Shown: positions 15,096 to 64,000 of the stretch, piece by piece
Position numbering within the stretch: the first letter of the stretch is position 1
How the letters are laid out: the number at the start of each line of letters is the position of its first letter
Program-made: the position numbers and the translations under genes
Source: a virus
Lineage: Duplodnaviria > Heunggongvirae > Uroviricota > Caudoviricetes
Strand: one strand, 5' to 3'
DNA: 64,000 nucleotides
Virus record (IMG/VR): IMGVR_UViG_3300012943_000028
Coordinates: 240,642 to 304,641 of that record
Notes under the pieces: model-generated
Database searches by the model: none
What the model was told of the DNA's origin: nothing
Seen by the model: the letters and a program-made list of their open reading frames with translations, nothing else

Positions 15096-15721
15096 TGAAA
15101 CTTCATGAGGTTGCTGGTGCAAGCAAGCGCAGCGGAACGCTGTACGTGTTTGACATCGATGATACGCTGTTCCGCACTACGGCGCAGGTACGTGTCATCA
15201 AAGATGGTGAGCCACCAAAAACTCTAACCAGCCAGGAATTCAATGACTACAAGCTCAAACCTGGTGAACGCTTCGACTACGGTGAGTTCGTTGACGCAGA
15301 GAAGTTCAACACAGAGAGCAAGCCGATCCCAAAGATGATTCAGACGCTAGTGCGAGTGCACGACAAGGTCAAGCTGAACCTTACGCCTGGCTCAAAGGTG
15401 ATCATCAGCACCGCACGTGGCATCCTTGACGATCAAGACACCTTCGACGACACGTTCAGGTATCACGGCATCGACATCGACAACATTGAGGCCAACCACG
15501 CCGAGCATGGTAAGGGGTCGTCGCCGGCAGAACGCAAGAACTCTGTTGCTCGACGCTACCTCAGCGCACATGATTACGATGCGTGCTACATGTACGACGA
15601 CAGCAAGACCAACCTTACGTACTTTCTACAGCTGAAGCACGAATTTCCTGAGGTAGATTTCAGGGCCTTCATCATTAATGATGAAGGCGAGATGCATCAG
15701 TTTACCGCTGAAGCTCGCTGA
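15095..15721 (+). CDS. HAD-superfamily hydrolase (phosphatase)
   Basis: YVFDIDDTLF matches HAD motif I (DxDxT). Confidence 0.65.
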   Translation: MKLHEVAGASKRSGTLYVFDIDDTLFRTTAQVRVIKDGEPPKTLTSQEFNDYKLKPGERFDYGEFVDAEKFNTESKPIPKMIQTLVRVHDKVKLNLTPGSKVIISTARGILDDQDTFDDTFRYHGIDIDNIEANHAEHGKGSSPAERKNSVARRYLSAHDYDACYMYDDSKTNLTYFLQLKHEFPEVDFRAFIINDEGEMHQFTAEAR

Positions 15722-16505
15722 GCAACGGTTCAACCTTCTGCCAAAACGCATCGGCCACCTGAGAGTGGAACTCTGGGCCACGATGGTGGCCATCTCTTGC
15801 GCACGTTTCCTTGTGGTGTTTTGGAAAATCTACCCACTCTATCTGAGGAAATTTTTCCTTCAACACTTCCATGTTGTCAACGGCCGTTGAAAGCGTCTTT
15901 GCTCCCCACAGCTCACACACGGTGCTCATCAACCGCATGCTTCTGATGGATTGGTTGGTGAAGAAGTACCGATCAGTAAAGACTGGCATGAGTGTCTCGT
16001 TGATCACGGCCGGGTAGTTTGATAGATCATTCGGTGAGAAGTGAAATTCTCTGCTTGCCTTGAATGAGAAGTCTCTCCAGAAGAAGGCAGGAAGCCAGCT
16101 CAGCACAAGCTTTGGGCGCATCTTAAGGTGAGTGTGAGCATAGTAGATTTCAGATGCCACTGTGTCCACAGAAGCGCCAGACACAGATAGGTTCCAGTAC
16201 GGAATCTTCTTACCTGTCGCAGCCCTGATCCTTTCAAGCAGCACGTAAGCCCACACCTTCTCAAGTGGGAGGCCTACACCTTCAGTGTGGCTGCAACCAA
16301 CGAAGATGATTGGCAGCTCAGATGGGTCGGTGAACTCATCACAGCGTAGGCCTTCACTGTTAAAGTTGTAAGTGATATCGCCTGGCTTGAATTGATTTGG
16401 ACCGTAGAAGGTCTCTTCCTTGTAGTTTTCAAGCGTGTCAAGGCTGTGCCATTCCGTGGTGCACGCTTTTTGCTTCGTGAACCAGAACAGCGGATGCACG
16501 TTCAT
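15702..16505 (-). CDS. SGNH/GDSL-like hydrolase paralog 1
   Basis: IIFVGCSHTEGVG resembles SGNH block I with Ser retained. Strong similarity to the partial plus-strand ORF at 63654-64000 (RAATGKKIP(Y/F)WN). Confidence 0.55.
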   Translation of the reverse strand: MNVHPLFWFTKQKACTTEWHSLDTLENYKEETFYGPNQFKPGDITYNFNSEGLRCDEFTDPSELPIIFVGCSHTEGVGLPLEKVWAYVLLERIRAATGKKIPYWNLSVSGASVDTVASEIYYAHTHLKMRPKLVLSWLPAFFWRDFSFKASREFHFSPNDLSNYPAVINETLMPVFTDRYFFTNQSIRSMRLMSTVCELWGAKTLSTAVDNMEVLKEKFPQIEWVDFPKHHKETCARDGHHRGPEFHSQVADAFWQKVEPLLSELQR

Positions 16506-17047
16506 TAGTAGTCTCGTGGATCGCCAGGAACGACAGCATCAAGCTTACGCTTGATTTCCTGCCAGAGGATTGGAGCGTAGCCCTGCGCATCAACGCCAAC
16601 GTCTAGGCGCCTACGTGTTGGGTCGAATGGAATCGTGTTGTGGCAGTGACCATGTAGATTGTACGAGCCACGGTGTGCCTTATGCCACGTAAGAAGTGGG
16701 TAATGGCACATCGCAACATAGGTGCCTTCGATCGTCTCATGCCAGAGGTCTGGGTAGATTTTCTCGAAGAGGTCTTGTAGCGGCTTCTGGTTACGGATCA
16801 GCTTGTCGTGGTTGCCAAGGATCAGGCGCTTCTTGCCATTCAGGCGGTGCATGATCTGCTTTGCCTCATTAACTTGGCAGAAGAACACGTCACCCAGAAT
16901 GTAGATGATGTCGTCGTACCGGACTCGTGCGTTCCAGTTCTCGATCAACCCTTCATTCATCTCCTGAGCGGAGGCATACGGTCGATCGCAGTATTTGATG
17001 ATGTTTTCGTGTCCGAAATGAAGGTCGGACGTAAAGTAGATGTTCAT
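16505..17047 (-). CDS. calcineurin-like metallophosphoesterase
   Basis: MNIYFTSDLHFGH...GDVF...GNHD metallophosphatase motifs. ORF trimmed to the internal Met. Confidence 0.7.
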   Translation of the reverse strand: MNIYFTSDLHFGHENIIKYCDRPYASAQEMNEGLIENWNARVRYDDIIYILGDVFFCQVNEAKQIMHRLNGKKRLILGNHDKLIRNQKPLQDLFEKIYPDLWHETIEGTYVAMCHYPLLTWHKAHRGSYNLHGHCHNTIPFDPTRRRLDVGVDAQGYAPILWQEIKRKLDAVVPGDPRDY

Positions 17048-17057
17048 ACGCAGGTAT

Positions 17058-17834
17058 TTACGAGTCTCTACCGTAGTACCTTGGTGATCCACGTTGTTCT
17101 GGTGATGCTGGTGGCGTGTAGATTTTATGTTCAAGCTCAAAGCATTTTTCAAAGTCTGCAATTGGATCAAGGTGCTGCGTTTCAGGTCTGAGAATAGCGT
17201 ACATGCCAACAGTCGCAACACCTATGTTTATTCCACGCTCCATCAAGAATTTGCCAAGCCCGAGATTTGGATTCTTGAGATGGTCCTTCAGCGACCAAAA
17301 GTATTGAGTTGCGGTGTCCATGATCTGCGCAGGCGCAGCCCAAAATACATCGTCCATGACCATCGCCTCTGGCGGCCGCCACTCACCATTTTCCATGATG
17401 AAAGCGTTTTCGTTCATCGCCTGCTCGACAATGGTGGATAGGAGCTTATATCTTGGGAAGATGATATCAGGCCGCATCTTGACAACAGCATCATACTTCA
17501 CGTTGTTCGATGTCTCGTACTGACGCCTAAACTCTACGCTCTTCATCCAAGAGTAGTAGAGCGCAATCGGTGCGTTCATGCTGCCATGCATGTTTAGAGC
17601 CCTAGCGTTTTCGGCAATGAACACCTTTGGCTTAAGTAGTTCAACGTACCGTGAAATAATTGCAGTAGGCACGACCTCCTCATCTACATCCGACAACGCA
17701 TATCGCCTGTTCGTGTTTGTTGTCCACGTATGAACGAAAAAGTCGATGTCCATATCACCGAAGAACAGCTGCTGGTTTTCTAGCGCCTTCAGGCAGGTAC
17801 GAAGCTGGCCGCTAAAGCAAACTGCGACCTTCAT
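17058..17834 (-). CDS. CxSGQxRT-family protein paralog 1 (unassigned family; possible glycosyltransferase)
   Basis: N-terminal MKVAVCFSGQLRT...FFVHTW; the same architecture as 24848..25642 and 25629..26393. Confidence 0.5.
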   Translation of the reverse strand: MKVAVCFSGQLRTCLKALENQQLFFGDMDIDFFVHTWTTNTNRRYALSDVDEEVVPTAIISRYVELLKPKVFIAENARALNMHGSMNAPIALYYSWMKSVEFRRQYETSNNVKYDAVVKMRPDIIFPRYKLLSTIVEQAMNENAFIMENGEWRPPEAMVMDDVFWAAPAQIMDTATQYFWSLKDHLKNPNLGLGKFLMERGINIGVATVGMYAILRPETQHLDPIADFEKCFELEHKIYTPPASPEQRGSPRYYGRDS

Positions 17835-18841
17835 ACCGTATAGCGATCAAGAAGCTGGAACACGCGCCTCTCTACGTGTTCCTGAAAGTCCTCATGGTCG
17901 TTGATCTTCTCAACGAGGCTTAGGTATTCAGGGTCAGTGAAGTGATAGTGCCCAGCGCAGATCAGCTTGTCGTATGTAGAGAAGGCAGGACCATATTCCC
18001 ACTTCTTCCATTTGCCTGAAGCGGCAACGTGGTCCGTGAAAGCATTCAACCCATCAACAAATCCACAGCGCATTGCTAGATCAACAAGCACCTGAGTCTG
18101 GGCGGCACCGAACTCTGGAGCTACATTGATAGCGTGAACACCAATCGTCTTTCTGTGCTGTACCTCCGCATCACTAATGTAATCAGCGTTGTGCTCCTTT
18201 AGCTTCACCCCATATTTCTCAGCGATGCTGACGAGCTGCTTGACAACCTCTGGGCTAAATGAACCGACCTGCTGGTGGCTCTTTACGAGTGATCCAGTCT
18301 GACCAACAACGTAGCGTGGCATTAGAACGCCTGGATACAGAGATGTGATGAAGCGTACGTCGCTTTCAAACTTTTCAACGCTGACAGCCGTTCCAATGTT
18401 CTCTTCGGTGCCAAACTCATACTCAAGCCACTTTGAACTGAGCATTGAAAGGGAGAACAGCTCTTCGGCGGCTGCATATGGGTCGGGTGCAGCAGATGTA
18501 TCAATGTGAATCAGGTCCATCGCATACATGTCGGTGCTGAGGCTTTGTTTAGTGCGCTCCATCGCCTCCTTGTATGACATGCCCTTTTCTATGTCGTTAA
18601 GGAATGGGCCACAGTGATCACGACACAGCATCACGTGTCCGTCTGGGTCTCTCTCACGAACGTATTGGGCGAAAGTTCTGGTATTGAAGGCACCAACATA
18701 ACCACCACCAAGCTCTGCGCACTCTATCTGGTTGCGTGATGCGATCAGCATGAGCTGGATATTTTTGTGGCGCGCATATTTGATCACAGCGTCGATGATC
18801 TCAACGCTCATTGGTCCTACGCCAACTTCTAGCTTTTTCAT
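17831..18841 (-). CDS. GatZ/KbaZ-family protein (tagatose-bisphosphate aldolase accessory / tagatose-6-phosphate kinase family)
   Basis: ASRNQIECAELGGGYVGAFNTRTFAQYV and CRDHCGPF parallel the GatZ [24 protein letters not shown] and GGDHLGPN regions. Confidence 0.7.
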   Translation of the reverse strand: MKKLEVGVGPMSVEIIDAVIKYARHKNIQLMLIASRNQIECAELGGGYVGAFNTRTFAQYVRERDPDGHVMLCRDHCGPFLNDIEKGMSYKEAMERTKQSLSTDMYAMDLIHIDTSAAPDPYAAAEELFSLSMLSSKWLEYEFGTEENIGTAVSVEKFESDVRFITSLYPGVLMPRYVVGQTGSLVKSHQQVGSFSPEVVKQLVSIAEKYGVKLKEHNADYISDAEVQHRKTIGVHAINVAPEFGAAQTQVLVDLAMRCGFVDGLNAFTDHVAASGKWKKWEYGPAFSTYDKLICAGHYHFTDPEYLSLVEKINDHEDFQEHVERRVFQLLDRYTV

Positions 18842-19299
18842 TCGAGAATCCCCTTGAGGTAGAGGCATGCATCAAGCACTGCACCTTGTCCAGCCTTCGA
18901 CGTAGTAACGAAGTCACTTGCCCAACGTGCCTCCTGTCTTGCAGAGACCGGGCAGATACCAAGAGCAACTGCCTCAAGAACAGGTGCATCGTAGTAGCCA
19001 TCGCCCATGTAGGCAACGCTGTCGAGGCCCAGTCCAGCAACAAAGCCGAGCCTGTCCTGTTCAGATACAAGCGACAGCTTGAAACCGAGGTCGTCCTCAA
19101 TGCGGCGCTTCGTGATCTCAAAACCACGGTGGTCGGCTGTGATGAACTGGATGTTGATCATGTCCTTGATCATCTTTAGACCGTCAGCATCGTGCGGGCC
19201 AAATACCTTGGCCACCTTACCTTCAGCCGTGTAGACGAACGTGCCATCAGTCATGACACCGTCGACGTCAAGGACGAAGTGCTTGAGCTTGTCTTTCAT
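18838..19299 (-). CDS. HAD phosphatase of the KdsC/NeuAc-9-P phosphatase subfamily
   Basis: FVLDVDGVMTDG motif and ~150 aa size match KdsC-type sugar-acid phosphate phosphatases. Confidence 0.7.
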   Translation of the reverse strand: MKDKLKHFVLDVDGVMTDGTFVYTAEGKVAKVFGPHDADGLKMIKDMINIQFITADHRGFEITKRRIEDDLGFKLSLVSEQDRLGFVAGLGLDSVAYMGDGYYDAPVLEAVALGICPVSARQEARWASDFVTTSKAGQGAVLDACLYLKGILE

Positions 19300-20092
19300 T
19301 GAAGGCCTCTGTCATTGCATTTACCGGTGCTGGTGTGCCGGTGTAAAGTCCAAATTGTTCCATGGCACCGTACAGCGCCATGATTGAGCCGTTGAAAGCA
19401 GGTATCCCAAGCTTTCTTGCAGTAATCACCGTAGGGGAATCATTCACTCCGAGATCGAGAAGCTTGTGCGTTCTCAGCAGCTCGATACCAAGCAGCTCAC
19501 CATTCATACCAACTGGGGTGCAGTTGATCATGGTGCCGTAGATGTCTTCTGCCCAAAGTTCATCGTGAGTTTCCCTGTTCCACTTTTCCTCAATGAAGGA
19601 ATCTTTGGATGGGTCTTTGATTCTACCTCGCACCCACACAGAAACATCGCTGTAAGCGCTAAGGCACTCGAGCACCGCCCTAGCCGCACCACCAGAACCG
19701 AAGACGTGTATCTTGTCGCCAAGCTTGACGTCAGCTACATCGAGCAGTTTTGAAAATCCAATCAGGTCAGTGTTGTAGCCGTAGAGCTTGCCATTTCGAT
19801 TGACGACTGTATTTACCGCCCCAATTTTGACAGCTGAATCATCAATCCAATCGAGGTAGTCTAGGACCTCAACCTTGAATGGCATTGAGATGCTGGCACC
19901 ACGAATGTCGAAGGTCTTCATCTGCAGCATGGCGCGCTTGATGTTGTCTTCTGAGCAGGCAAGGTACTTGAAGTCTAGACCACGTGCCTTGTAGCCGGCA
20001 CTATGGACCGTCATTCCTAGATTTCCAGGGTTCGAGCTCAGTGAAATACAGAGCTCAGATTTCCCAGCCATTTTAACTGCTTCAAGCAAGTT
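19268..20092 (-). CDS. shikimate/quinate dehydrogenase-like oxidoreductase (AroE fold)
   Basis: ISMPFKVEV...GAVNTVV...GYNTDLIGF parallels the AroE motifs (NVTvPfK, avNT, GyNTDg.G); Rossmann GSGGAARA. Confidence 0.6.
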   Translation of the reverse strand, partial: NLLEAVKMAGKSELCISLSSNPGNLGMTVHSAGYKARGLDFKYLACSEDNIKRAMLQMKTFDIRGASISMPFKVEVLDYLDWIDDSAVKIGAVNTVVNRNGKLYGYNTDLIGFSKLLDVADVKLGDKIHVFGSGGAARAVLECLSAYSDVSVWVRGRIKDPSKDSFIEEKWNRETHDELWAEDIYGTMINCTPVGMNGELLGIELLRTHKLLDLGVNDSPTVITARKLGIPAFNGSIMALYGAMEQFGLYTGTPAPVNAMTEAFNERQAQALRP

Positions 20093-21596
20093 CATTGAGT
20101 CTCTCCAGTGCCAAGCTGAAAAGCAGCTTGTCAAATGGGGCAGCGTGCAGTGGCGCCATGTTTAGGAAGATGATGGTAGTAATCTGATCAATGAGTGGGC
20201 TAGGGAAACGCTGTCTAAGGCTCGCGGCCAGCTCATCATGATGGCGGCTGTGGTAAAAGTTGAACCATACGCTGTCACCGTTCTCATCGAACATGAAGCG
20301 GTTCTGCTTGACTGTTGAGTAGTCAAGTATGATTCCACCTAGAAGCTTTGCGGCGTCATAGTACAGGTCTCCAACGAGTAGCTCACCAGCAAAGTCCTGT
20401 CGCCAGTCGAGCAGCGTAAATGAAGGGCCCTGCGTATCCGGGAATGAGCACACAATGTTGTCGAACTGTAGATCACCATGGATGAAGGTCGAGCGCTGTT
20501 CGAGGTCGCTGTTGCAGATGCTCTTCCAATCTATCAGCTGAAGCGCGTTGTCAATGTCAACCTTCATTCGGTTTCCATTGATGAACTTTGGGTTGAAGTT
20601 TGGGTATTTCTCCCTGAACATCGCTAGGCGCTTCATCGTCTTCGTGTGATAGAAGTCGGTGCAGTGGGAGGCAGCTAACTGCCGTCCGAGGTTGTGCCAT
20701 ACGCGAAAGTCTAGGAACGCTAGCAGCTCATCAAAGATGTGAGCGTCAATAATTGGGTAGAGCGTCTGACCAGAAACGAACTTGTAAGTGTAGAAGCGTT
20801 CCTTATGCTTCACGATCTTTGGGAAGATGCCTGGAGAGTATGCGGCTCTACGCACACGATCTTCTGCGATCTCGTGGTTCTTGAACCACTTAATGACGTT
20901 GTCACCAACTATCCACAAGAACTCATCTGTCTTTGAGAAGTCGTATGGAGAGTTCTGAAGGTAAAAGCGCTGGTACTTTTCAAACGTGCCGAGGTCTACC
21001 CACTTGAGCGGGAACCCATGAACGTCAAGCCCTGACCATCCAGATGAGAGCTCTACATCACCAAGGTTGGCCCAAAACTGGTCCGTGTCTTTGATGTAGA
21101 AGGCACCATTGACGGCGAGACCTGAATCACAGTAGCGCTTGTCAACGATCTTCGTAATCCGGCCGTCGTACATCTCAACGTTGCAGTATGCTGGTGAGTC
21201 TGCTACGTCGACGTTGGATACACCAACGTAGTTCTTATCCGTTGGGATATCGTTAAGCCCTTCGTAGTAGGCATCGCAGGCGATCAGATAGAATGGTCCG
21301 CTGATCACACGATGACAGCGACGAAGGGAATGAGCTGGTCCAGAGTTTGGACCATCGTAGTTGTTGACCAACACGAATGAGAACTTCGTGTTCGGATGTG
21401 CGAGCTCTAGATACGTTCTAACGTCTTGACTGAGGAACCCAAGCGCAACCACGAACTGCGTTGAGCTGTCAAACTGCTCAATGATGTGAGAGATGATTGC
21501 CTTGTCGTTGACAGGAAGCAGTGTCTTGTTGATGACGCCAGCATACTTGCCCATGCGGCTGCCAATACCAGCGGTAAGAAGAACGACGGTCTTCAT
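20082..21596 (-). CDS. bifunctional sugar-phosphate nucleotidyltransferase / APH-family kinase
   Basis: N-terminal VLLTAGIGSRMG nucleotidyltransferase signature. C-terminal IHGDLQFDNIV is the HGDxxxxN motif of aminoglycoside/choline/sugar kinases. The layout resembles LicC-LicA or HddC-HddA type sugar-activation pairs. Confidence 0.75.
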   Translation of the reverse strand: MKTVVLLTAGIGSRMGKYAGVINKTLLPVNDKAIISHIIEQFDSSTQFVVALGFLSQDVRTYLELAHPNTKFSFVLVNNYDGPNSGPAHSLRRCHRVISGPFYLIACDAYYEGLNDIPTDKNYVGVSNVDVADSPAYCNVEMYDGRITKIVDKRYCDSGLAVNGAFYIKDTDQFWANLGDVELSSGWSGLDVHGFPLKWVDLGTFEKYQRFYLQNSPYDFSKTDEFLWIVGDNVIKWFKNHEIAEDRVRRAAYSPGIFPKIVKHKERFYTYKFVSGQTLYPIIDAHIFDELLAFLDFRVWHNLGRQLAASHCTDFYHTKTMKRLAMFREKYPNFNPKFINGNRMKVDIDNALQLIDWKSICNSDLEQRSTFIHGDLQFDNIVCSFPDTQGPSFTLLDWRQDFAGELLVGDLYYDAAKLLGGIILDYSTVKQNRFMFDENGDSVWFNFYHSRHHDELAASLRQRFPSPLIDQITTIIFLNMAPLHAAPFDKLLFSLALERLNELA

Positions 21597-22288
21597 TTGT
21601 GCTCGCTTTCAATCCTACCATTTCCACGGTTAGCATCGTCCTGAACACGAATGACATCATCAAGGTGCGGTGTCGACACCTCAAAGAGGTGGAGGTCAGT
21701 GTTAGCACGAAGACGGTGAATCGTGTTTGGCGTAACGTGCAGACAGACAGGACCATTGAAGCTGCTTTCACCGAGGTCTGCCTTGGTTACAGCATCGTTC
21801 TGTGCTTCACGGTTTGCCTTGAACACGAGCGTAACGTTGCCGCTCTCAATAAGGTTTGTCTCTTCCTTGAAGTTGTGGTACTGAAGGCTCGTCTGATTTC
21901 CAGCCTTGATGAAGATCTTCTTTGCACAGTACCTGTCATTGTCTTTAGTCAACCACAGCTCATAGCCCCAAGGCTTCACAACTTTGTAGTGAACACCAGC
22001 TCTGGTTATGGTGAGGTAGTTGAGCGGCGCATCGTGTGATGCTACCTGAGCAACGTATATTTGGCCGTTACCAATGAGAAGCACCTCACGGTTCTTGACG
22101 TCGATCGTATCACCAGCCTCTACCTTCAATTTGTCAGAGGCTATTGTAAATGAGCCGCTGATGACGTAGATCGTGCGCTCTACTTCACCAGCAAAATACA
22201 CCTCATCCTTCACGTTTGACGAGTAGAAGAGATACGCGCCGTTCGCATACACGTGATCGGCCGTTGTTGGTTGGAGTATCTTGATCAT
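21593..22288 (-). CDS. cupin-domain protein (phosphosugar isomerase-like)
   Basis: VVKPWGYELWL and a second cupin-like beta-barrel core (bicupin). Confidence 0.6.
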   Translation of the reverse strand: MIKILQPTTADHVYANGAYLFYSSNVKDEVYFAGEVERTIYVISGSFTIASDKLKVEAGDTIDVKNREVLLIGNGQIYVAQVASHDAPLNYLTITRAGVHYKVVKPWGYELWLTKDNDRYCAKKIFIKAGNQTSLQYHNFKEETNLIESGNVTLVFKANREAQNDAVTKADLGESSFNGPVCLHVTPNTIHRLRANTDLHLFEVSTPHLDDVIRVQDDANRGNGRIESEHK

Positions 22289-22369
22289 TTGTAGATGTAC
22301 GGGTCTCGTTTACGAATCTCTTTCATCTTCTTCCAGTATCGAATCTTCGAGCGGATTCGATAGATGATG

Positions 22370-23164
22370 TCACGGAAGAACTGCATGATCGTCTCCTAAA
22401 ATACCACGTGCCTTGAGTTCCTGCACCATGTGATCCGCCCATGCAACATGTGTGCTTGGTGTAGGGTGAATGCACTTGGTCAGTTCCAGCTTGTTGTCAT
22501 ACACCCACTTCATGCATGACTCGTTGAGGTTCATGATGCTAGTGTCGATGAGCTCTGGCAGCATGTGAGCGAGAGCCGGCTTGTATTCACCTTTCTTGTA
22601 CACAGCAAGCGATTCCAAGTTTGGAAGCGCCGAGAAGAACAGGAACTTTACACCCTGCGTTCTCAGGAAGGACTTGAGCATCACAACCTGCTTGAGAAAG
22701 GTGTCCATCGCCGAATAGAACTCGTACACTTCAGCCACAAACATCTGGTGATATTTATCGAGCTGGCGGGCCTTCTCTTCAGTCATTGAATAGCCAGAGC
22801 CGCTGTAGAAGCCGCTGTACATAGAAAATGGCTGTGCTGCGTTGAATCTGAACCAACGATCTGATGGGTCGGCGGCCTTGCGCTCGAAACCCTCGACGTA
22901 AATTTCACCACGCTCAATCGTTGACCAGCCAATGATGACCAGGAGGTTCTTCCTTTCCTCTGGCGGAAGGTTGAGCACGTAGTCGATCGTCATTCTGTAC
23001 ATGCGCGCATTGCTGCCGCCGCCCGCTGCCTGGTTGACATGTGTGATGTTTAGCTTACGAGCTAGAACGGTTGGCCAGCAATGGTCGCGAACCTTACCAC
23101 CCCATGCGGCTGTGCCATCACCGTTCGCCCAGCTGCATCCGTTTGTGTAGAGCTTGTTGATCAT
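22370..23164 (-). CDS. SGNH/GDSL-like hydrolase paralog 2
   Basis: LYTNGCSWANGDG N-terminal block I-like motif; similar to 23949..24848. Confidence 0.5.
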   Translation of the reverse strand: MINKLYTNGCSWANGDGTAAWGGKVRDHCWPTVLARKLNITHVNQAAGGGSNARMYRMTIDYVLNLPPEERKNLLVIIGWSTIERGEIYVEGFERKAADPSDRWFRFNAAQPFSMYSGFYSGSGYSMTEEKARQLDKYHQMFVAEVYEFYSAMDTFLKQVVMLKSFLRTQGVKFLFFSALPNLESLAVYKKGEYKPALAHMLPELIDTSIMNLNESCMKWVYDNKLELTKCIHPTPSTHVAWADHMVQELKARGILGDDHAVLP

Positions 23165-23952
23165 TTGACTAGCTTCCTGTAGAGCTCTTCAGCAACAATC
23201 GCGTGCGCTTCTTCAGATGCGTGCATGCTGCCGATCTTGTCTGGATATTTCTGTGAGAGGCCGAACCAGTTCATTGAGTGAATCTCATCAGCCGGCACGA
23301 GGTCAAGCAGCAGTGGATCATTAGAAAGAATGACGCACTTGATGCCACGCTTCTTTGCGTAGAGGTATGACTTGAGTAGCACACCAACGTCGTAGTTGCG
23401 CTTGATGTCACCGTTTAGAATTTCGACGTAGTACTGACACATGCGCTTGAGCTTCTCAATCGGCTCAGTGTGTAGGCGCTTATAGTAGTGAATGGCGCCC
23501 TGCACATTGGAGCTCTTTTCTCTCTCACGCACCTTGATGTAGTCATCGATACCACCTACCTGTTCCGTGAGGAGACAAGGATCATACTCGCTCTTGTTCA
23601 GGAAGTGATGGTCGAATGGGTTCTTGTTTGCCTCTGGATTGTGGTGTGGTGGGTAGAGATGGTAGTTGATGTGCCGTGCCTCAAGTGGGAATCGCTGTGT
23701 CTTACCCTCCTCGATCCACTCAATACGGTCATAGCTCGTGGTGCCGATGACGATGAGGTCGGGTTTTGGGTCCATCCTTGCAGCGTACTCTACTTGAAGG
23801 TGGACGGCAAAGTTGCTTGCGCTTCCTCTTGCGAGCGTTACGAGCTCTGCTCCGAGCTTCTGCGCAAGCAGCACACCGTACGGCTGTGTCTGAAGGTCCA
23901 GCACGCCGATGCCACAGTTGAAGCTGTCACCGCATACGACTATCTTCTTCAC
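23161..23952 (-). CDS. SGNH/GDSL-like hydrolase paralog 3
   Basis: IVVCGDSFNCGIGV contains the GDS(F) block I motif. Confidence 0.55.
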   Translation of the reverse strand: MKKIVVCGDSFNCGIGVLDLQTQPYGVLLAQKLGAELVTLARGSASNFAVHLQVEYAARMDPKPDLIVIGTTSYDRIEWIEEGKTQRFPLEARHINYHLYPPHHNPEANKNPFDHHFLNKSEYDPCLLTEQVGGIDDYIKVREREKSSNVQGAIHYYKRLHTEPIEKLKRMCQYYVEILNGDIKRNYDVGVLLKSYLYAKKRGIKCVILSNDPLLLDLVPADEIHSMNWFGLSQKYPDKIGSMHASEEAHAIVAEELYRKLVK

Positions 23953-24848
23953 TTGAACTTCCTCTCATAGAGATGGTTTGCCCAAGCCTCGTGGCTCTCA
24001 GGGCTTGGGTGCATGTTGATCATTCGAATTGGCTTAGGCACGTTCTCATCGATGAACGACTTGAAGGACCTGAAGTCCAGCTTGTCCAAGAACACATCAT
24101 CTGGAATGCTCTTCCACTGTGCACGAATCCTGTTGATGTCTTGACGGTTGTTCCATGCGCCATCAAGCCAACCATCGAATGGTTCTGCGTGCCAATTGTT
24201 GATCACCAACGAGAGATCACATGGTCTCCAATCATTGAGCGGTGACAGCTTGCCTTTCGGCATGTTTGGAACATAGAAGGAGTTGAAGAAGACGTGCTGG
24301 ATGGCGTTGCTCTTGAGGTAGGTGTGCAGCTGGAAATTCTGCTCAACGAAGCGAGTGATGGCCTCACGCTCATTCCACAGGTGCTGGATGTAGAACTTTG
24401 AGAAGCGCTTCATGACGTCAAGCTTGTAGTACTCATCTTGGATCATGGCTGGCCAGATGGTGTACTGATGAAGCTTGTCGTCAAACCCTTCTATTAGAAT
24501 GTTCTTTCGCTCAAGGCTCGACCAACCAACCACAACAACAAGCTCTGCCGGATCACCACCCTCTGACAGGTACTTCATCACCCAACCCATCGTGCTGTTG
24601 AAGATGGTGTCATTGCTCCTTGCGGGCCAGCTAATGTTGACTGACTTGTAACCGAGCTTGTTCGCAAGGTGCGTGGACCAAATCCTTGGCACTCGGTAGT
24701 AATCATTGTGCGGCTGACAGTCAAGCATGCCCGCCTTGAAGTTCTGAGTCATGCCTTCGCCCTTCTCTCCAGCAGGCACGAGCATGTGCGGGCCAGCTAT
24801 CTCGCTGCCAAATGCCCAGCTATCTCCATTTGTCAAGAGCGTCTTCAT
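23949..24848 (-). CDS. SGNH/GDSL-like hydrolase paralog 4
   Basis: LLTNGDSWAFGSE GDS motif; TAATG coupling to the upstream gene. Confidence 0.6.
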   Translation of the reverse strand: MKTLLTNGDSWAFGSEIAGPHMLVPAGEKGEGMTQNFKAGMLDCQPHNDYYRVPRIWSTHLANKLGYKSVNISWPARSNDTIFNSTMGWVMKYLSEGGDPAELVVVVGWSSLERKNILIEGFDDKLHQYTIWPAMIQDEYYKLDVMKRFSKFYIQHLWNEREAITRFVEQNFQLHTYLKSNAIQHVFFNSFYVPNMPKGKLSPLNDWRPCDLSLVINNWHAEPFDGWLDGAWNNRQDINRIRAQWKSIPDDVFLDKLDFRSFKSFIDENVPKPIRMINMHPSPESHEAWANHLYERKFK

Positions 24849-44151: not shown

Positions 44152-44489
44152 GATTTTCTCCTGAGGTATGCCATCTTGTGTGGGCCTGCAGGCATGGCCT
44201 CGATTTCCCACGTAGCTTCCATCTCATCTAGCTGAGAGCGCCAGCACTTCAGCACCTCAACATCATTTGGTTTGCGATGGAAGAAGTAGAGCTCCATGTC
44301 ACCAACAGATGACTTGTAGTCTTCAATCCGTTTGGCGGCTGTCGCCTTAGCCTTCTCAACATCGCCATGATGTACGATGGTGTAGAACTCGACTGCCTGC
44401 TCAAAGGTCATCTCATGGTCAGCAAGATAGTCGCCGGTGCTCGGCGTGAGATTGCCAATCCAGGACTCGAAGGCGGTGATCAGCTTCAT
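44148..44489 (-). CDS. hypothetical protein
   Basis: ORF trimmed to the internal Met MKLITAFESW. Confidence 0.4.
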   Translation of the reverse strand: MKLITAFESWIGNLTPSTGDYLADHEMTFEQAVEFYTIVHHGDVEKAKATAAKRIEDYKSSVGDMELYFFHRKPNDVEVLKCWRSQLDEMEATWEIEAMPAGPHKMAYLRRKS

Positions 44490-46812: not shown

Positions 46813-46918
46813 TAGACACCTCAGGACGATACGGATATTTATGCCCACCGGCGTCGATCTGATAAATATCGTAGGGAGAAAGTCACCTGGCTGGTGACGC
46901 CTATTAGGAGTATCGGAA

Positions 46919-54626: not shown

Positions 54627-56243
54627 TTAGAAGGACTGAATCAGCTGCGGAGCGGCTGAGTCGAATCCAACGATGTCGAGCATGCCTGGGTCCTTCGGGT
54701 CAGCGATGGTGAAGTTCGTCGTAGACGTACCACACACGATCAGCTTCGCGTTCTTGACGTACTGCTTGCGGTAGCGAGCGAGGGCCTCGACCGGCTGCAT
54801 GCGACCAGCGTAGGTCTCGTTGTCAGTGATGACAACGAACTTCTCAACACCGTCCATCTTGTGCTCGAGGGCGTGCGTCATCGGCAGAGAGCAGTCGGTG
54901 CTGCCCCACGAGAATGCCTGGATGACCTTCAGCACCTTGTCGAGGCGCATTGCTGGCGTGATCTTGAGCTCACCCATCTTGTGGTTGAAACCACCGATCC
55001 AGTAGTTCGGCTCGCGCTTCGCTACGGCCAGGGCCATAACACCAGCCACCTCGGCGGCGGTGAGGTTGTTTGCGCCAGTCACGCGCGCGCCGAACATCGA
55101 GCCAGAGCAGTCCACGCCGATGAGGTGACCCTTACCGGTTGACTCAATGAACTCGAACGACTCGTAGAACGCATCGTTCAGGGCGTCAAGCACCTGCTGA
55201 ACTGGAGTCCAGGTCAGCGAGCCCTTGTCACCATGACCCTGCTTGTACTGGTTGAAGGCGTTGAGGATCGTGATCGGGTGAACACGGCCTGCCTTGATCG
55301 CCTCCTTGTCAGTCAGCTTCTCGATGACGACCTTCATGTCGGCCGACAGCGGCTTGAGCACACCCACATTCGTGAGCTGGCCCAGCTTGCGGATGAGTGC
55401 CGTCATACCCATGCCTGGGAGCAGGGCTGACATCACCTTCACATCACGCTGCAGCTCAGTTGGGATCATCTCCCAAGTGATTGCGTCGTTCGACTCGATC
55501 AGCTTGATGGCCTTCTTCGCATCGGCACCCTTGAGCGCCTCGAAGTCGTTGAGCAGCTGCGGAACAACTGCACCAGCCTCCAGGCCTTCAGCACCCTTCA
55601 CGACGTAGCGGAAGAGGTTCGACTGAACGTCAGAGAGCGGCTTCACGTGCGCCAGGCGGAGCACGTCACGGTGAGCCCAGCCATCACGTGACTGGTACTT
55701 GAGCAGCTGGAGGGCCAGCTTGTCCTCACCACGCTTGGTGTACCACGCAGCGACACCACGCTTTGCAGCAGCGTTCCACTTGCCGAGCTCATCGAGCGCA
55801 GCAACGAACTGGAACAGGTGCGTGCCGATACGGCAGACCTTTGGCAGCGCCTCGTAGGCGGCCTTCACGGTCTCCTCGTTACCATGCACAGCGCACATGG
55901 CAAGAGCAAAGACCGATGGATCGTTCTTCGGAGCACGGCCGGCGAGCGACAGCTCGGTGATGCGGTTGACAGTGCGGACACCGTCAGCCTTGATGCACTC
56001 GAGAAGGTTCTTCGACGCGCCGAGGGTCAGCTTCTTGGCAGAAGCGTAGTACGAAGGCGTGTCTGAGCCGAGGATCAGGAAGCGGTCGAGGTAGCCCCAC
56101 TGATCAAGCTGGAAGGTCATTCCGCCTGCAGAGTTGCGCACCATTTCTGCCTCGCGACCTGGGAGCGCCTGCGTCTGTGGGGTCACAGTCGAAGCTGGCT
56201 TGCGAGTGTTGGTTGAAACGTAGATTGCCGATGAACGTGCCAT
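54627..56243 (-). CDS. rsr: Ro60-related protein (TROVE domain plus C-terminal vWA-like domain), Rsr homolog
   Basis: AGGMTFQLDQWGYLDRFLILGSDTPSYYA is the TROVE signature; a vWA-type DxSGS motif (VDCSGSM) lies in the C-terminal part. Start set at ATG 56243, preceded by an AAGGAG ribosome-binding site. The ORF-track extension to 56390 lacks a ribosome-binding site. Confidence 0.8.
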   Translation of the reverse strand: MARSSAIYVSTNTRKPASTVTPQTQALPGREAEMVRNSAGGMTFQLDQWGYLDRFLILGSDTPSYYASAKKLTLGASKNLLECIKADGVRTVNRITELSLAGRAPKNDPSVFALAMCAVHGNEETVKAAYEALPKVCRIGTHLFQFVAALDELGKWNAAAKRGVAAWYTKRGEDKLALQLLKYQSRDGWAHRDVLRLAHVKPLSDVQSNLFRYVVKGAEGLEAGAVVPQLLNDFEALKGADAKKAIKLIESNDAITWEMIPTELQRDVKVMSALLPGMGMTALIRKLGQLTNVGVLKPLSADMKVVIEKLTDKEAIKAGRVHPITILNAFNQYKQGHGDKGSLTWTPVQQVLDALNDAFYESFEFIESTGKGHLIGVDCSGSMFGARVTGANNLTAAEVAGVMALAVAKREPNYWIGGFNHKMGELKITPAMRLDKVLKVIQAFSWGSTDCSLPMTHALEHKMDGVEKFVVITDNETYAGRMQPVEALARYRKQYVKNAKLIVCGTSTTNFTIADPKDPGMLDIVGFDSAAPQLIQSF

Positions 56244-59960: not shown

Positions 59961-59991
59961 GGTGTTCTCCAGAAACCGATGCAGGTATTTA

Positions 59992-60804: not shown

Positions 60805-60847
60805 GTGGGATACCTCTTATTGTACTTTGATTTGGGTTGCCGGTAAA

Positions 60848-62877: not shown

Positions 62878-62889
62878 GATTCCGGTAGG

Positions 62890-62964
62890 TGGTGCTCGCT
62901 GTAGGGATCGAACCTACGACCTCTTCTATGTCAAAGAAGTGCTCTACCACTGAGCTAAGCGAGC
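62890..62964 (-). tRNA. tRNA-Val (anticodon GAC)
   Basis: Minus strand GCTCGCT-TA-GCTC-AGTGGTA-GAGC-A-CTTCT-TTGACAT-AGAAG-AGGTC-GTAGG-TTCGATC-CCTAC-AGCGAGC-A-CCA gives a full cloverleaf with canonical U8, GG in the D-loop, U33/A37, TTCGATC T-loop and an encoded CCA. Confidence 0.8.
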
Positions 62965-63455
62965 CCGAGTTTCTTCATCTTCTTCTTGATCCAGTCCTTC
63001 TTGACTGGGCTCAAGTGATCGTAAAACGTAATTCCATTCAGGTGATCAAGCTCATGCTGAAAGCAGACTGCGTCAATGCCATCAAGCGTAAGCTCAAACT
63101 CTTCAAACTTGTCGTCACGAGCCTTCACCTTTACCCAGCTTGGGCGCTTCACGATGGCAAACAGGCCAGGGAAGCTCAAGCAGCCTTCGTTGAAGGGCAC
63201 GATCTCTGTCGATGCTTCAACGATCTCTGGGTTGAAGAACACACGGCGCTCCATCTTTCCACCCATGGAACTTGTGTCCATGATGAAGATGCGGAACGGG
63301 TATCCAATCTGAATGGCCGAAAGCCCAATGCCATTCTGGCGCTTCATCACCTCAAACATCTCAACGATCGTCGCCTCATCAACGTTAGTGATGCGGGAAA
63401 CCGGGTTGCTGATCATCTTCAGCGTCTTGTCTGGGTAGTGAAGAACTTTCATCAA
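62955..63455 (-). CDS. def: peptide deformylase
   Basis: GIGLSAIQIG (motif 1), EGCLSFPG (motif 2) and QHELDHLNG (HExxH motif 3). Confidence 0.85.
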   Translation of the reverse strand: MMKVLHYPDKTLKMISNPVSRITNVDEATIVEMFEVMKRQNGIGLSAIQIGYPFRIFIMDTSSMGGKMERRVFFNPEIVEASTEIVPFNEGCLSFPGLFAIVKRPSWVKVKARDDKFEEFELTLDGIDAVCFQHELDHLNGITFYDHLSPVKKDWIKKKMKKLGLA

Positions 63456-63556
63456 GGTGGTGCCCTCACACAGAATCGAACTGTGGTTTCAGCCTTACCA
63501 AAGCCGCGTAATAGCCACTATACTATGAGGGCATAATCTCGTACATCTCTATTTAT

Positions 63557-63632
63557 TGGAGCGCCCAGTGGGAATCGGACCCACGACCTTCGCCTTCGGA
63601 TGACGACGCTCTATCCACTGAGCTACAGGCGC
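63557..63632 (-). tRNA. tRNA-Arg (anticodon CCG)
   Basis: Minus strand GCGCCTG-TA-GCTC-AGTGGATA-GAGC-G-TCGTC-ATCCGAA-GGCGA-AGGTC-GTGGG-TCCGATT-CCCAC-TGGGCGC-T-CCA gives a cloverleaf with two G-U pairs in the acceptor stem. The T-loop has C at position 55 (unusual). Confidence 0.7.
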
Positions 63633-63653
63633 ATTGGAACCACGGTAAATACA

Positions 63654-64000
63654 CCATGGAAACCGTCATTGAACATTACATGAACCGTCTGGATTCTCGC
63701 CGTGGTGCACTGCACCAGTGGTGCGGAACAGACAATGCAGAATCGTACCGTGAGCAACATGGCAATGGTCCAAATCCGTTCAAGCCGGAGGACTTCGATT
63801 ACCGCTTCAACTCAAATGGGTTCAGGTGCGACGAGTTCACAGAAGAAAGCGAGCTGCCGGTTCTATTCAACGGCTGCAGCATCACTGAAGGGATAGGAGT
63901 TCCTGTCACTGGAACTTGGGCCTATCAGCTCGTTGAGAAGCTGCGCGCTGCAACTGGCAAGAAGATTCCATTCTGGAACATTGCCATTGGCGGTGGTGGA
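63654..64000 (+). CDS. SGNH/GDSL-like hydrolase paralog 5, 3' end truncated by window edge
   Basis: METVIEHYMN...GPNPFKPEDFDYRFNSNGFRCDEFTEESELPVLFNGCSITEGIGVP...RAATGKKIPFWNIAIGGGG is strongly similar to the gene 15702..16505 product. Open to the window end, so absent from the ORF track. Confidence 0.5.

What the first reader, a model, noticed from the sequence alone, without database searches (positions are those of the whole stretch)
15702..64000. Five-member SGNH/GDSL-like paralog family, three with Cys replacing the block-I Asp
Genes at 15702..16505, 22370..23164, 23161..23952, 23949..24848 and the truncated plus-strand gene at 63654-64000 all begin with a hydrophobic beta-strand followed by G(D/C)S(W/F/H/I) and a Gly two to three residues later, the block-I arrangement of SGNH hydrolases with the nucleophilic Ser retained. 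Two have classical GDS. Three have GCS (GCSW, GCSH, GCSI), an unusual substitution. The 15702 and 63654 copies are near-identical in long stretches (RAATGKKIP(Y/F)WN) yet lie 47 kb apart on opposite strands. Five stand-alone SGNH-type enzymes in one phage suggests serial O-acyl transfer or removal on a glycan, possibly on modified DNA bases.
Basis: seen in the sequence. Interest (0 to 1): 0.6.

Follow-up and report, generated by a model that had tools for sequence, protein, structure and literature searches.

The report
Phage SGNH-fold esterase-like gene set
A giant T4-like phage carries five genes for esterase-type (SGNH-fold) enzymes from three distinct uncharacterised families: four sit in a widespread, unstudied phage sugar-pathway module and the fifth sits inside a transfer-RNA gene array, so they are real and probably active enzymes whose substrates are still unknown.

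Summary

The five are not one paralog family. A/E form an unnamed 'GCSxTEG' family, B/D are Pfam DUF6071, and C belongs to a DUF6071-related 'CGDS' family. A and E are 38% identical, not near-identical. The Cys is invariant across the large, phage-centred A/E family. No copy has the block-III Asn, and only A/E keep DxxH.

B, C and D, and often an A-type gene, belong to a conserved phage module. Of 79 loci found through C alone, 73 carry DUF6071, 71 carry DUF7796-like paralogs, and 54–59 carry each of the NTase–kinase, cupin, aldolase-like and shikimate-DH-like genes. Copy E lies antisense inside a 31-tRNA array, as do relatives in 13 of 46 other loci.

Best reading: cytoplasmic Ser–His acyl esterases or transferases that tailor a phage-made glycan. 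The acceptor is unknown. DNA is possible, because a gp42-like hydroxymethylase is present, but it is unproven.

The parts
15702..16505 (-). Gene A, 267 aa. SGNH-fold enzyme of the unnamed 'GCSxTEG' family. Block I is VGCSHTEG (C71, S72), block II is WNLSVSGAS, and block V is ARDGHH (D238, H241). It has a roughly 60-residue N-terminal extension with the invariant Y46, N49 and R54.
16505..17047 (-). Metallophosphoesterase (phrog_547), about 180 aa. Its stop overlaps the start of gene A. Homologs recur near A-type genes in tRNA-array loci.
   Evidence: Pfam Metallophos_2. phrog_547 E=2.6e-58. Homologs in L014, L017, L038, L084 and L085. Gene call.
17058..17834 (-). DUF7796-like / phrog_13607 paralog 1, 258 aa (motifs CxSGQxRT, HTWD, RxD, DxFFYG). 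Function unknown; it travels with the module.
   Evidence: Present in 71 of 79 C-family loci.
17831..18811 (-). GatZ/KbaZ-like class II aldolase/epimerase-like protein of the sugar cassette.
   Evidence: Pfam and NCBIfam weak hits. Homolog in 54 of 79 loci.
18838..19299 (-). Small HAD (KdsC-like) phosphatase of the cassette.
   Evidence: Pfam Hydrolase_3, weak. Homolog in 17 of 79 loci.
19268..20095 (-). Shikimate-dehydrogenase-like oxidoreductase of the cassette.
   Evidence: Shikimate_dh_N E=3.8e-15. NCBIfam PRK12550 E=6.7e-45, below its cutoff. Homolog in 54 of 79 loci.
20082..21596 (-). Bifunctional sugar-1-phosphate nucleotidyltransferase (N-terminal) plus APH-type kinase (C-terminal), 504 aa. 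It has the same architecture as the RB69 gp52:53 / DLP3 gp82 / AfhE enzymes that make UDP-arabinose.
   Evidence: Pfam NTP_transf_3 + APH. NCBIfam. Paper PMC13326640. Homolog in 59 of 79 loci.
21593..22288 (-). Cupin protein resembling the mannose-6-phosphate isomerase C-terminal domain; part of the cassette.
   Evidence: Homolog in 55 of 79 loci.
22370..23164 (-). Gene B, 264 aa, Pfam DUF6071. Block I is NGCSW (S11), block II is GGGSN, the block-III position reads GWSTIER (no Asn), and block V is IHPTPSTH (H233, no Asp at -3).
   Evidence: DUF6071 75.3 bits against a cutoff of 27. Alignment A3. hhalign to the C family, 96.4%. The A-family HMM also hits B at E=1.2e-5.
23161..23952 (-). Gene C, 263 aa, GTG start, from a DUF6071-related family with an invariant CGDS (C7, G8, D9, S10). 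Other features are LARGSASN, TTSYDR (R76 invariant), H244/H250, and a conserved NYHLYPPHH insertion.
23949..24848 (-). Gene D, 299 aa, Pfam DUF6071. Block I is NGDSW (S10), the block-III position reads GWSSLER, and block V is MHPSPESH.
   Evidence: DUF6071 62.8 bits. B-D BLASTP E=2.6e-16. Alignment A3.
24848..25681 (-). DUF7796-like paralog 2, about 277 aa.
25629..26393 (-). DUF7796-like paralog 3, 254 aa.
63656..64000 (+). Gene E, the first 115 codons of a 263-aa protein. It is a second member of the GCSxTEG family (NGCSITEG; ARDDLH downstream). It lies antisense inside a 31-gene tRNA array.
   Evidence: Translation. Full gene from the source contig. Its own ortholog at 64% identity in L010. 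tRNA array.
62893..63632 (-). The three tRNA genes of the array that lie in the window (62893-62964, 63461-63532, 63560-63632), plus a peptide deformylase gene (62955..63452). The last tRNA is 24 nt from the ATG of E.
   Evidence: Rfam tRNA hits. ARAGORN on L097. Pep_deformylase. Sequence.

Best explanation
The five genes encode soluble, cytoplasmic SGNH-fold enzymes from three sequence families. They work by covalent Ser-His catalysis. The block-I Ser sits at the N-terminus of helix 1. It is activated by the block-V His, which is backed by an Asp only in A and E. The Ser attacks an ester carbonyl and forms an acyl-enzyme, which is then resolved by water (esterase) or by a sugar hydroxyl (O-acyltransferase). 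The canonical block-III Asn of the oxyanion hole is missing in all five. Its place is taken by a family-specific loop carrying a conserved Arg: R143 in A, R85 in B and R76 in C. B, C and D also carry a conserved Asn in block II. B, C and D, and in many phages an A-type gene, are fixed components of a widespread phage gene module. That module also holds 2-9 DUF7796-like paralogs and a nucleotide-sugar cassette: a GatZ-like aldolase/epimerase, an HAD phosphatase, a shikimate-DH-like reductase, a bifunctional kinase-nucleotidyltransferase and a cupin. In this module the SGNH-fold enzymes most likely add or remove O-acyl groups on the sugar or growing glycan, with each paralog having its own position or substrate. 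Copy E belongs to the same family as A but is an old, separately conserved paralog that resides in the tRNA array. Shown: gene existence, fold, conserved catalytic Ser/His, family structure, module conservation and tRNA-array residence. Inferred: esterase or acyltransferase activity, a sugar substrate, cytoplasmic location (no signal peptide is visible), and the role of the Arg. Unknown: the sugar made and the final acceptor (DNA, protein, lipid or polysaccharide).
Against: No activity has been measured, and no member of any of the three families has been studied; there were no papers on DUF6071. The block-III Asn, which is a defining SGNH catalytic residue, is absent in all five. B, C and D also lack the DxxH Asp, so the chemistry may differ from a textbook esterase. 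B and D were not modelled; their fold is inferred from homology to C. Model A has a low-confidence segment (residues 145-169) next to the block-III position, and I could not inspect model coordinates to verify active-site geometry. No acyl donor is identified. The module contains no recognised glycosyltransferase within its core, so one of the two multi-copy families might be the transferase. The tRNA-array context of E and many relatives is not explained by a glycan role.
Confidence: 0.55

Rival explanations
1. The SGNH scaffold has been repurposed for non-acyl chemistry. Under this reading the multi-copy SGNH-like proteins are themselves the module's transferases, for example transferring a glycosyl, phosphosugar, carbamoyl or cyclitol unit from the nucleotide-activated donor, rather than acting as O-acyl tailoring enzymes.
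For: The core module lacks any recognisable GT-A or GT-B gene. The SGNH-like genes occur in 2-6 copies per locus, a pattern typical of transferases with different acceptors. The oxyanion-hole Asn is lost and replaced by conserved Arg residues, which suit a diphosphate-bearing substrate. The Cys next to the Ser is invariant in A/E.
Against: Every structural neighbour is an esterase or acyltransferase. The Ser-His(-Asp) arrangement is the one used for acyl-enzyme chemistry. The DUF7796-like family (1-9 copies per locus) is an equally good candidate for the missing transferase. GT7 and GT2 genes do occur in the flanks of some loci.
Confidence: 0.15
2. The A/E (GCS) family acts on an ester at the ribose of a tRNA 3' end. 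It would either hydrolyse aminoacyl- or peptidyl-tRNA, or use aminoacyl-tRNA as an acyl donor. This would explain why E and many relatives live inside tRNA arrays.
For: E lies inside a 31-tRNA array, antisense, with its stop codon 3 nt from a tRNA 3' end. The same holds in 13 of 46 non-redundant loci, where the arrays have 9-41 tRNAs all on the opposite strand, and the stop is 1-15 nt from a tRNA in 12 of them. These genes fall in at least 5 clades of an NJ tree, with varying flanking tRNAs. A peptide deformylase and a release-factor-like fragment share the array. The conserved R54, R143 and R237 fit an anionic substrate. An aminoacyl-tRNA is chemically an O-acyl sugar ester (established chemistry).
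Against: Co-location may reflect inherited synteny or the use of tRNA arrays as permissive insertion sites; the loci examined are the best 80 hits and so are biased towards one phage lineage. The NJ tree has no support values. The same family also sits inside sugar cassettes, next to radical SAM and UDP-glucose dehydrogenase genes, and next to Fe-S and SOD genes. There is no resemblance to known peptidyl-tRNA hydrolases and no literature precedent.
Confidence: 0.15
3. They are ordinary esterases or lipases aimed at host envelope components (LPS, capsule or peptidoglycan O-acetyl groups, or lipids). Their role would be entry, lysis or superinfection exclusion, like the SGNH domains of phage tail fibres.
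Against: All five are about 265-300-aa stand-alone proteins. B, C and D have the first beta-strand at residues 2-7, and no signal peptide, transmembrane segment or fibre domain is visible. They are embedded in, and conserved with, cytoplasmic nucleotide-sugar enzymes.
Confidence: 0.07
4. Some or all copies are non-catalytic SGNH-like binding proteins (pseudoenzymes).
For: The block-III Asn is missing in all five, and the block-V Asp is missing in B, C and D.
Confidence: 0.03

Closest known systems
Classical SGNH/GDSL hydrolases, especially the carbohydrate esterase families CE2 and CE3 and TesA-like esterases (e.g. PDB 1vjg, 2vpt, 2wao, 3hp4, 9otv)
   Same: They share the three-layer alpha/beta/alpha fold. 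The nucleophile Ser lies in a G-x-S-x-x-x-G block at the start of helix 1, and a His lies just before the last helix. A and E have a full DxxH. B, C and D resemble CE2 in having a Ser-His pair without the Asp.
   Different: The block-III GxND Asn is absent from all five and is replaced by a loop with a conserved Arg. The block-I Asp is replaced by an invariant Cys in A/E. Sequence identity to any solved enzyme is 11-20%. The proteins are cytoplasmic, phage-encoded and multi-copy within a sugar module.
Pfam DUF6071 (PF19547)
   Same: B and D score 75 and 63 bits against a threshold of 27, so they are members. The C family is a detectable relative.
   Different: DUF6071 has no known function and no literature. 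A, C and E are not captured by it.
SGNH-fold O-acyltransferases (PatB 7tjb, OatA 6vjp/5ufy, SsfX3 3skv)
   Different: PatB and OatA act outside the cytoplasm on peptidoglycan. There is no sequence-level relationship, and no donor has been identified here.
Phage tail-fibre SGNH esterase domains (G7C gp63.1, 4qnl)
   Different: They are C-terminal domains of large virion fibres that act on host O-antigen. The proteins here are small, stand-alone and sit among biosynthetic genes.
DNA arabinosylation/glycosylation clusters of T4-like phages RB69, DLP3 and RL38J1 (PMC13326640)
   Same: The host is a T4-like phage. The shared elements are a gp42-type thymidylate-synthase-fold enzyme, an HAD phosphatase, a bifunctional MurU-like nucleotidyltransferase + APH-type kinase, and, in RL38J1, a UDP-galactopyranose mutase. 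The window has counterparts of all of these (paper).
   Different: Those clusters use GT-B glycosyltransferases and contain no SGNH or DUF7796-like genes. The window's NTase-kinase has no detectable sequence similarity to RB69's by tblastn. A link between this module and DNA is not shown.

Membership tests
SGNH/GDSL hydrolase superfamily | Three-layer alpha/beta/alpha fold with a five-stranded parallel sheet | tested here: met
SGNH/GDSL hydrolase superfamily | Block I: nucleophilic Ser in GxSxxxG after strand 1 | tested here: met
   The Ser is present in all five. It is invariant in the A family (S72), the C family (S10) and in B/D (S11). It aligns to the GDS Ser of 9otv and 3hp4.
SGNH/GDSL hydrolase superfamily | Block I: Asp preceding the Ser (GDS) | tested here: not met
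   The position is Cys in A, B and E and Asp in C and D. The Cys is invariant in the A/E family. By established knowledge this Asp is conserved but is not one of the four catalytic S-G-N-H residues.
SGNH/GDSL hydrolase superfamily | Block II: Gly (backbone NH of the oxyanion hole) | tested here: inconclusive
   A has SGAS (G110), E has GGGG, B has GGGSN and C has RGSASN (G43 invariant). D reads PARSN with no Gly at the aligned position. The geometry was not inspected.
SGNH/GDSL hydrolase superfamily | Block III: Asn of GxND (side-chain oxyanion-hole donor) | tested here: not met
   The sequences after strand 3 are SWLPAFFWRD (A), SLFPSMYRRD (E), GWSTIER (B), GTTSYDR (C) and GWSSLER (D). None has a conserved Asn, and all have a conserved Arg instead.
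SGNH/GDSL hydrolase superfamily | Block V: catalytic His (DxxH) before the last helix | tested here: met
   The His is conserved in all: A H241, E ARDDLH, B H233, C H244 and D MHP. The Asp at -3 is present only in A and E. B, C and D have a Ser-His pair like CE2.
Pfam DUF6071 (PF19547) | Score above the curated gathering threshold (27 bits) | tested here: met
   B scores 75.3 bits and D 62.8 bits. A, C and E have no hit, so they are not members.
Pfam Lipase_GDSL (PF00657) | Score above the gathering threshold (23.6 bits) | tested here: not met
   A scores 16.8 bits and C 19.2 bits; B, D and E have no hit. 9 of 55 A-family members hit weakly.
Phage DNA glycosylation systems (RB69/DLP3/RL38J1 type) | Base-modifying TS-fold enzyme, sugar activation genes and a DNA glycosyltransferase acting on phage DNA | tested here: inconclusive
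   A gp42-like enzyme (E=1e-72 to 1b49), UGM and an NTase-kinase are present in the window. No GT-B or T4 a-gt/b-gt homolog was found next to gene 42. The chemistry of the DNA cannot be tested with these tools.

The most novel reading that the evidence does not exclude
The 'GCSxTEG' SGNH family (A and E) may be a phage-specific enzyme class that handles acyl groups esterified to a nucleotide-linked ribose or sugar. Specifically, it may take aminoacyl or peptidyl groups from the 3' end of tRNA, either as a new kind of peptidyl- or aminoacyl-tRNA hydrolase or as an aminoacyl-tRNA-dependent acyltransferase that decorates phage glycans or hypermodified DNA. The invariant Cys-Ser pair would act as an acyl relay. 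This reading would tie together the family's two main homes, tRNA arrays and sugar-modification clusters.
Probability: 0.1. Interest if true: 0.85.

Novelty: new variant of a known kind. Interest (0 to 1): 0.55.

Why it matters
The fold is ordinary, but three things are not. First, there are three uncharacterised SGNH-fold families with an altered active site: no oxyanion Asn, a conserved Arg, and an invariant Cys next to the nucleophile in A/E. One of them has thousands of members, is almost confined to phages, and has no Pfam model. Second, two to six such genes per locus are fixed parts of a widespread phage module. That module also contains a multi-copy DUF7796-like family and a conserved nucleotide-sugar cassette with shikimate-pathway-like enzymes, and nothing has been published on it. 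It points to a phage-made, tailored glycan (or pseudo-sugar) of unknown structure and target in large T4-like phages that also make 5-substituted cytosine DNA. Third, the A/E family is a recurrent protein-coding resident of phage tRNA arrays, an association with no description that I could find. Each point is directly testable with recombinant proteins. If the acceptor proves to be DNA or tRNA, that would open a new area of phage nucleic-acid or glycan chemistry.

Tried and rejected
- Megablast of the cluster against 50,697 GenBank phages found no match. tblastn of A, C, D, a divergent marine A-type protein and the HAD-like neighbour against the same collection found no match. No cultured phage could therefore be used as a reference.
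- The word-indexed homolog search badly under-counted the A family (6 hits) and B (2 hits). An initial impression of rarity was rejected after the exhaustive profile search.
- Single-sequence and C-profile searches of PDB sequences gave nothing useful.
- NCBIfam and PHROGs gave no hit for any of the five proteins.
- The search for related loci with the broad alignment A4 failed because no block was conserved enough. The genome scan with A1 is pattern-limited, so 'nearly absent from cellular genomes' is provisional.
- Three exact-sequence contig look-ups failed or gave only a short contig because of start-codon differences.
- The two ORFs beside the gp42-like gene are not recognisable glucosyltransferases.
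- Promoter and terminator scans of the cluster were at or below chance.
- The idea that the neighbouring radical SAM/SPASM enzymes mature the Cys/Ser, as anaerobic sulfatase maturases do, was considered and set aside because no C/S-x-P-x-R motif is present.
- Recent duplication or gene conversion between A and E was rejected: DNA identity is 65% and each has its own ortholog.

Full report
**1. What is in the sequence**

The four internal ORFs are exactly where the finding places them.
- A: 15702..16505(-), 267 aa.
- B: 22370..23164(-), 264 aa.
- C: 23161..23952(-), 263 aa, with a GTG start.
- D: 23949..24848(-), 299 aa.

The fifth gene, E, starts at 63656. Frames 63654 and 63655 contain stops. 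E runs off the window after 115 codons. Each protein has a hydrophobic strand followed by G(D/C)S and a Gly a few residues later: A IIFVGCSHTEGVG, B LYTNGCSWANGDG, C IVVCGDSFNCGIG, D LLTNGDSWAFGSE, E VLFNGCSITEGIG. A regular expression for this arrangement hits 7 times in 262 window ORFs, against 0.84 +/- 0.90 in shuffled ORFs, and five of the seven are these genes. Family HMMs find no sixth copy in the window.

The window comes from a 358,285-bp metagenomic contig. That contig carries T4-type genes: Phage_30_3, topoisomerase II subunits and a gp42-type enzyme. It is therefore a T4-like jumbo phage.

**2. One family or several**

BLASTP links A with E (49.5% over the 109 residues in the window) and B with D (20%, E=3e-16). 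C is marginal to B and D (E about 0.01), and A/E has no significant match to B, C or D.

I recovered full-length E (263 aa) from the source contig. A and E are 38% identical over 256 residues. The longest identical run is 9 residues (RAATGKKIP), and the DNA is 65% identical over 217 nt. E has its own ortholog (64% identity, L010) on a foreign contig that also carries an A ortholog (49% identity, L007). The duplication is therefore old and both copies have been kept. 'Near-identical' is not correct.

Profile-profile comparison shows that B/D and the C family are homologous over nearly their full length (hhalign probability 96.4%, E=1.2e-9). A/E aligns with the C family and with B/D only weakly (E=8e-4 and 2e-3). 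The alignment is nevertheless in the correct register over blocks I-III, and the broad A-family HMM picks up B at E=1.2e-5.

So there are three sequence families within one superfamily:
- A/E, an unnamed 'GCSxTEG' family.
- B/D, which are members of Pfam DUF6071 (75 and 63 bits against a threshold of 27).
- C, a DUF6071-related family with an invariant CGDS.

**3. Fold and catalytic blocks**

*Sequence.* A 55-sequence A-family profile reaches solved GDSL esterases (9otv at E=1.1e-5, 3hp4 at E=3.4e-4). It aligns GCS on GDS, the N..G block on block II, and ARDglHpG on the DGiHPN block V.

*Conservation.*
- In the A family, Y46, N49, R54, G70, C71, S72, G76, D238 and H241 are invariant, and R143, A236 and R237 nearly so.
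- In the C family, C7, G8, D9, S10, L40-G43, N47, R76 and D188 are invariant, and H244 and H250 are at least 90% conserved.
- B and D share N8, G9, S11, W12, S51, N52, G79, W80, R85, H233, P234 and H239.

The nucleophile Ser and the block-V His are therefore kept everywhere, and the superfamily assignment stands.

Two canonical features are not met.
- The block-III Asn (GxND) is absent from all five. The sequences there are SWLPAFFWRD (A), SLFPSMYRRD (E), GWSTIER (B), GTTSYDR (C) and GWSSLER (D), all with a conserved Arg.
- The Asp of DxxH is present only in A and E. B, C and D have a Ser-His pair, as in CE2 esterases; this last comparison rests on established knowledge.

I could not inspect model coordinates, so the roles of the Arg and the Cys are inferred.

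**4. The Cys**

The Cys does occupy the position of the block-I Asp. However, it is the family norm rather than an oddity of this phage.
- GCS occurs in 118 of the 149 best profile hits. The remainder mostly fail my regular expression rather than carrying GDS, which was seen only twice.
- GCS occurs in 77 of 79 unique A-type proteins from fetched loci.
- DUF6071-type proteins are mixed, with 5 GCS and 7 GDS among 13.
- The C family always has a Cys two residues earlier, as CGDS (57 of 57).

By established knowledge, the block-I Asp is not one of the four catalytic S-G-N-H residues, and other SGNH families replace it (for example GQSN in sialate O-acetylesterase-like proteins).

**5. How big and where**

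The word-indexed search suggested that the A family was tiny, with 6 clusters. This was an artefact of that method. An exhaustive profile search of 1.84 billion representatives found 5,690 clusters at E<=1e-3, 2,847 at E<=1e-10 and 218 at E<=1e-30. The weakest of these may include other SGNH families.

IMG/VR holds at least 496 relatives. A pattern-limited scan of 185,579 prokaryotic species genomes found only 9 weak partial hits. No cultured phage in GenBank has a tblastn-detectable relative of A, C or D. No Pfam, NCBIfam or PHROG family covers A, C or E. No paper mentions DUF6071 or DUF7796.

**6. Context of A-D: a conserved sugar module**

On the minus strand, with 1-4-nt overlaps between neighbouring genes, the order is:
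- two DUF7796-like paralogs;
- D, C and B;
- a cupin;
- a 504-aa nucleotidyltransferase + APH-type kinase;
- a shikimate-DH-like gene;
- a small HAD phosphatase;
- a GatZ-like aldolase/epimerase;
- a third DUF7796-like paralog;
- a metallophosphoesterase;
- A.

The block has lower G+C (0.50) than its flanks (0.56-0.61).

The arrangement recurs in 423-485-kb contigs carrying seven SGNH-like genes. It also recurs in L012, L018 and L021, where the A-type gene, only 32% identical, sits between the NTase-kinase and the ShikDH-like gene.

As an independent test I fetched 79 IMG/VR loci through the C family alone and scanned them with local HMMs.

| Gene family | Loci of 79 |
|---|---|
| DUF6071-type | 73 |
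| DUF7796-like (1-9 copies) | 71 |
| NTase-kinase | 59 |
| Cupin | 55 |
| Aldolase-like | 54 |
| ShikDH-like | 54 |
| A-type | 36 |
| HAD | 17 |
| Any tRNA | 2 |

The median number of SGNH-like genes per locus is 3 and the maximum is 6.

Among 147 non-module proteins flanking the module in 42 non-redundant loci, the commonest families were radical SAM (14), NodU/CmcH-type carbamoyltransferase (8), NAD-dependent epimerase/dehydratase and GDP-mannose dehydratase (5-6), GT7 (4), RmlC (3), GT2 (2) and DHQ-synthase-like (2). A thymidylate-synthase-like protein appeared only once.

In a sister phage (L001) the central cassette is replaced by NTP-transferase + DHQ-synthase-like + SDR genes, while the SGNH and DUF7796-like genes remain. 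One A-family protein is fused to a TylF-like sugar O-methyltransferase domain. All of this points to tailoring of a nucleotide-activated sugar or glycan.

**7. Context of E: a tRNA array**

Rfam finds three tRNAs just upstream of E. ARAGORN on the contig beyond the window finds 31 tRNA genes on the opposite strand. E lies between tRNA-Arg(ccg), which is 24 nt from its ATG, and tRNA-Arg(tct), which is 3 nt from its stop. A peptide deformylase gene lies in the same array.

Of 46 non-redundant A-family loci, 13 show the same picture: arrays of 9-41 tRNAs, all antisense to the gene. In 12 of them the stop codon is 1-15 nt from a tRNA. The flanking tRNAs differ among loci (Asn, Gln, Arg, His, Val, Ser, Thr). 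In an unsupported NJ tree these genes fall in at least five clades interleaved with sugar-cluster members, and window A + L007 is sister to window E + L010.

Besides the SGNH gene, only the metallophosphoesterase that precedes A recurs in the divergent tRNA loci. A tRNA array occupies about 2% of such a genome, so 13 of 46 is far above a naive expectation. However, the loci are the best hits to one query and share ancestry, so this is an association and not proof of function. I found no literature on it.

Other A-type genes sit next to radical SAM/SPASM and UDP-glucose-dehydrogenase-like genes, or next to Fe-S-biogenesis and superoxide dismutase genes. E itself is about 2 kb from an Fe-S_biosyn gene.

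**8. Is the target DNA?**

The window encodes the following.
- A close homolog of T4 gp42 dCMP hydroxymethylase at 44486..45229 (E=1e-72 to PDB 1b49; about 54% identity to T4-like Citrobacter phages).
- A UDP-galactopyranose mutase at 35500..36534 (E=6e-52).
- A nucleotide kinase.

A 2026 paper shows that T4-like phages RB69 and DLP3 and phage RL38J1 glycosylate 5-hydroxycytosine. They use a TS-fold enzyme, an HAD phosphatase, a bifunctional MurU-like nucleotidyltransferase/APH-type kinase, an isomerase, GT-B transferases and, in RL38J1, a UGM (PMC13326640). The window's 504-aa enzyme has that bifunctional architecture.

Against it:
- no GT-B or T4-type glucosyltransferase was found in the module or beside gene 42;
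- the module's flanks elsewhere look like general glycan tailoring rather than nucleotide metabolism;
- the NTase-kinase shows no sequence similarity to RB69's.

I put the DNA-acceptor reading at roughly 0.2.

**9. Mechanism and verdict**

The best-supported model is that these are soluble Ser-His acyl-enzyme catalysts, either esterases or O-acyltransferases. No signal peptide is apparent, and strand 1 starts at residues 2-7 in B, C and D. B, C, D and module-resident A-type genes would tailor the sugar or glycan made by the adjacent cassette, with each paralog having its own specificity. The lost Asn, the conserved Arg residues and the invariant Cys indicate a modified active site, possibly adapted to a phosphate-bearing substrate such as a nucleotide-sugar or a nucleic acid.

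The rivals are set out in the Rival explanations section: a repurposed scaffold acting as the module's transferase, a tRNA-ester substrate for the A/E family, host-envelope esterases, and pseudoenzymes.

The finding is real. It is partly mis-described and sits within a known fold class, but the altered catalytic blocks, the unstudied widespread module and the tRNA-array residence make it a worthwhile lead.

Noticed in passing
window 62893..63632 and beyond the window end (L097:1504-8426): There is a 31-gene tRNA array on the minus strand. Embedded in it are protein genes for peptide deformylase (window 62955..63452 -), a weak release-factor-like fragment, and SGNH gene E. An RNA ligase gene lies just beyond the array.
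   Followed up: partly
window 44486..45229 (-): This is a close homolog of T4 gp42 dCMP hydroxymethylase (E=1e-72 to PDB 1b49), implying 5-substituted cytosine in this phage's DNA. The two adjacent ORFs (45230..45877 and 45949..46938) have no recognisable function.
   Followed up: partly
window 35500..36534 (-) and 34070..34756 (-): A UDP-galactopyranose mutase (GLF, E=6e-52) and a guanylate-kinase-like nucleotide kinase lie here. A second, separate hint of sugar (galactofuranose) chemistry sits 10 kb from the main cluster.
   Followed up: no
window 17058..17834, 24848..25681, 25629..26393 (all -): Three paralogs of an uncharacterised family (weak DUF7796, phrog_13607; motifs CxSGQxRT, HTWD, RxD, DxFFYG). 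This family co-occurs with the SGNH-like genes in 71 of 79 loci, in 1-9 copies. It is a candidate for the module's missing transferase.
   Followed up: partly
L001:5224-8677 (sister phage, 198-kb contig from the same sample): The central sugar cassette is swapped for NTP-transferase + a 322-aa unknown + a DHQ-synthase-like sugar-phosphate cyclase + SDR, while the flanking SGNH and DUF7796-like genes are retained. Both cassette versions contain a shikimate-pathway-like enzyme, which hints at cyclitol or carbasugar chemistry.
   Followed up: no
window ~54627..56243 (-): A TROVE/Ro60-like protein with a vWA domain (538 aa in the contig's gene call). Rfam at gathering thresholds found no Y-RNA-like partner in the window.
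   Followed up: partly
window 12854..13384 (-) and 11016..12605 (+): A PP-binding (acyl-carrier-like) protein of 176 aa and a Peptidase_S74 (fibre chaperone) protein of 529 aa lie 2-4 kb from gene A. The carrier protein could be an acyl donor, but its conservation was seen only in close relatives.
   Followed up: no
gene C, window 23161..23952, residues 96-103: The C family has a nearly invariant His-rich insertion, NYHLYPPHH, between strand 3 and the next core element. It is absent from classical SGNH enzymes and may be a lid or a metal site.
   Followed up: no
P0194 (496 aa) and BFVD A0A6J5LTW5 (602 aa): These are domain fusions of the A-type SGNH domain: one with a TylF-like O-methyltransferase, and one in a protein annotated as containing a radical SAM domain.
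   Followed up: partly
L003:19517-19592, L026:1272-1348 and 3323-3398, L034:14193-14266: ARAGORN calls tRNAs with a CUA anticodon (reported as tRNA-Pyl) in several related jumbo-phage loci. These may be amber-suppressor tRNAs.
   Followed up: no
window 14001..26000: The sugar and SGNH cluster has a G+C content of about 0.50, against 0.56-0.62 in the flanking regions, consistent with a cassette of different origin.
   Followed up: no
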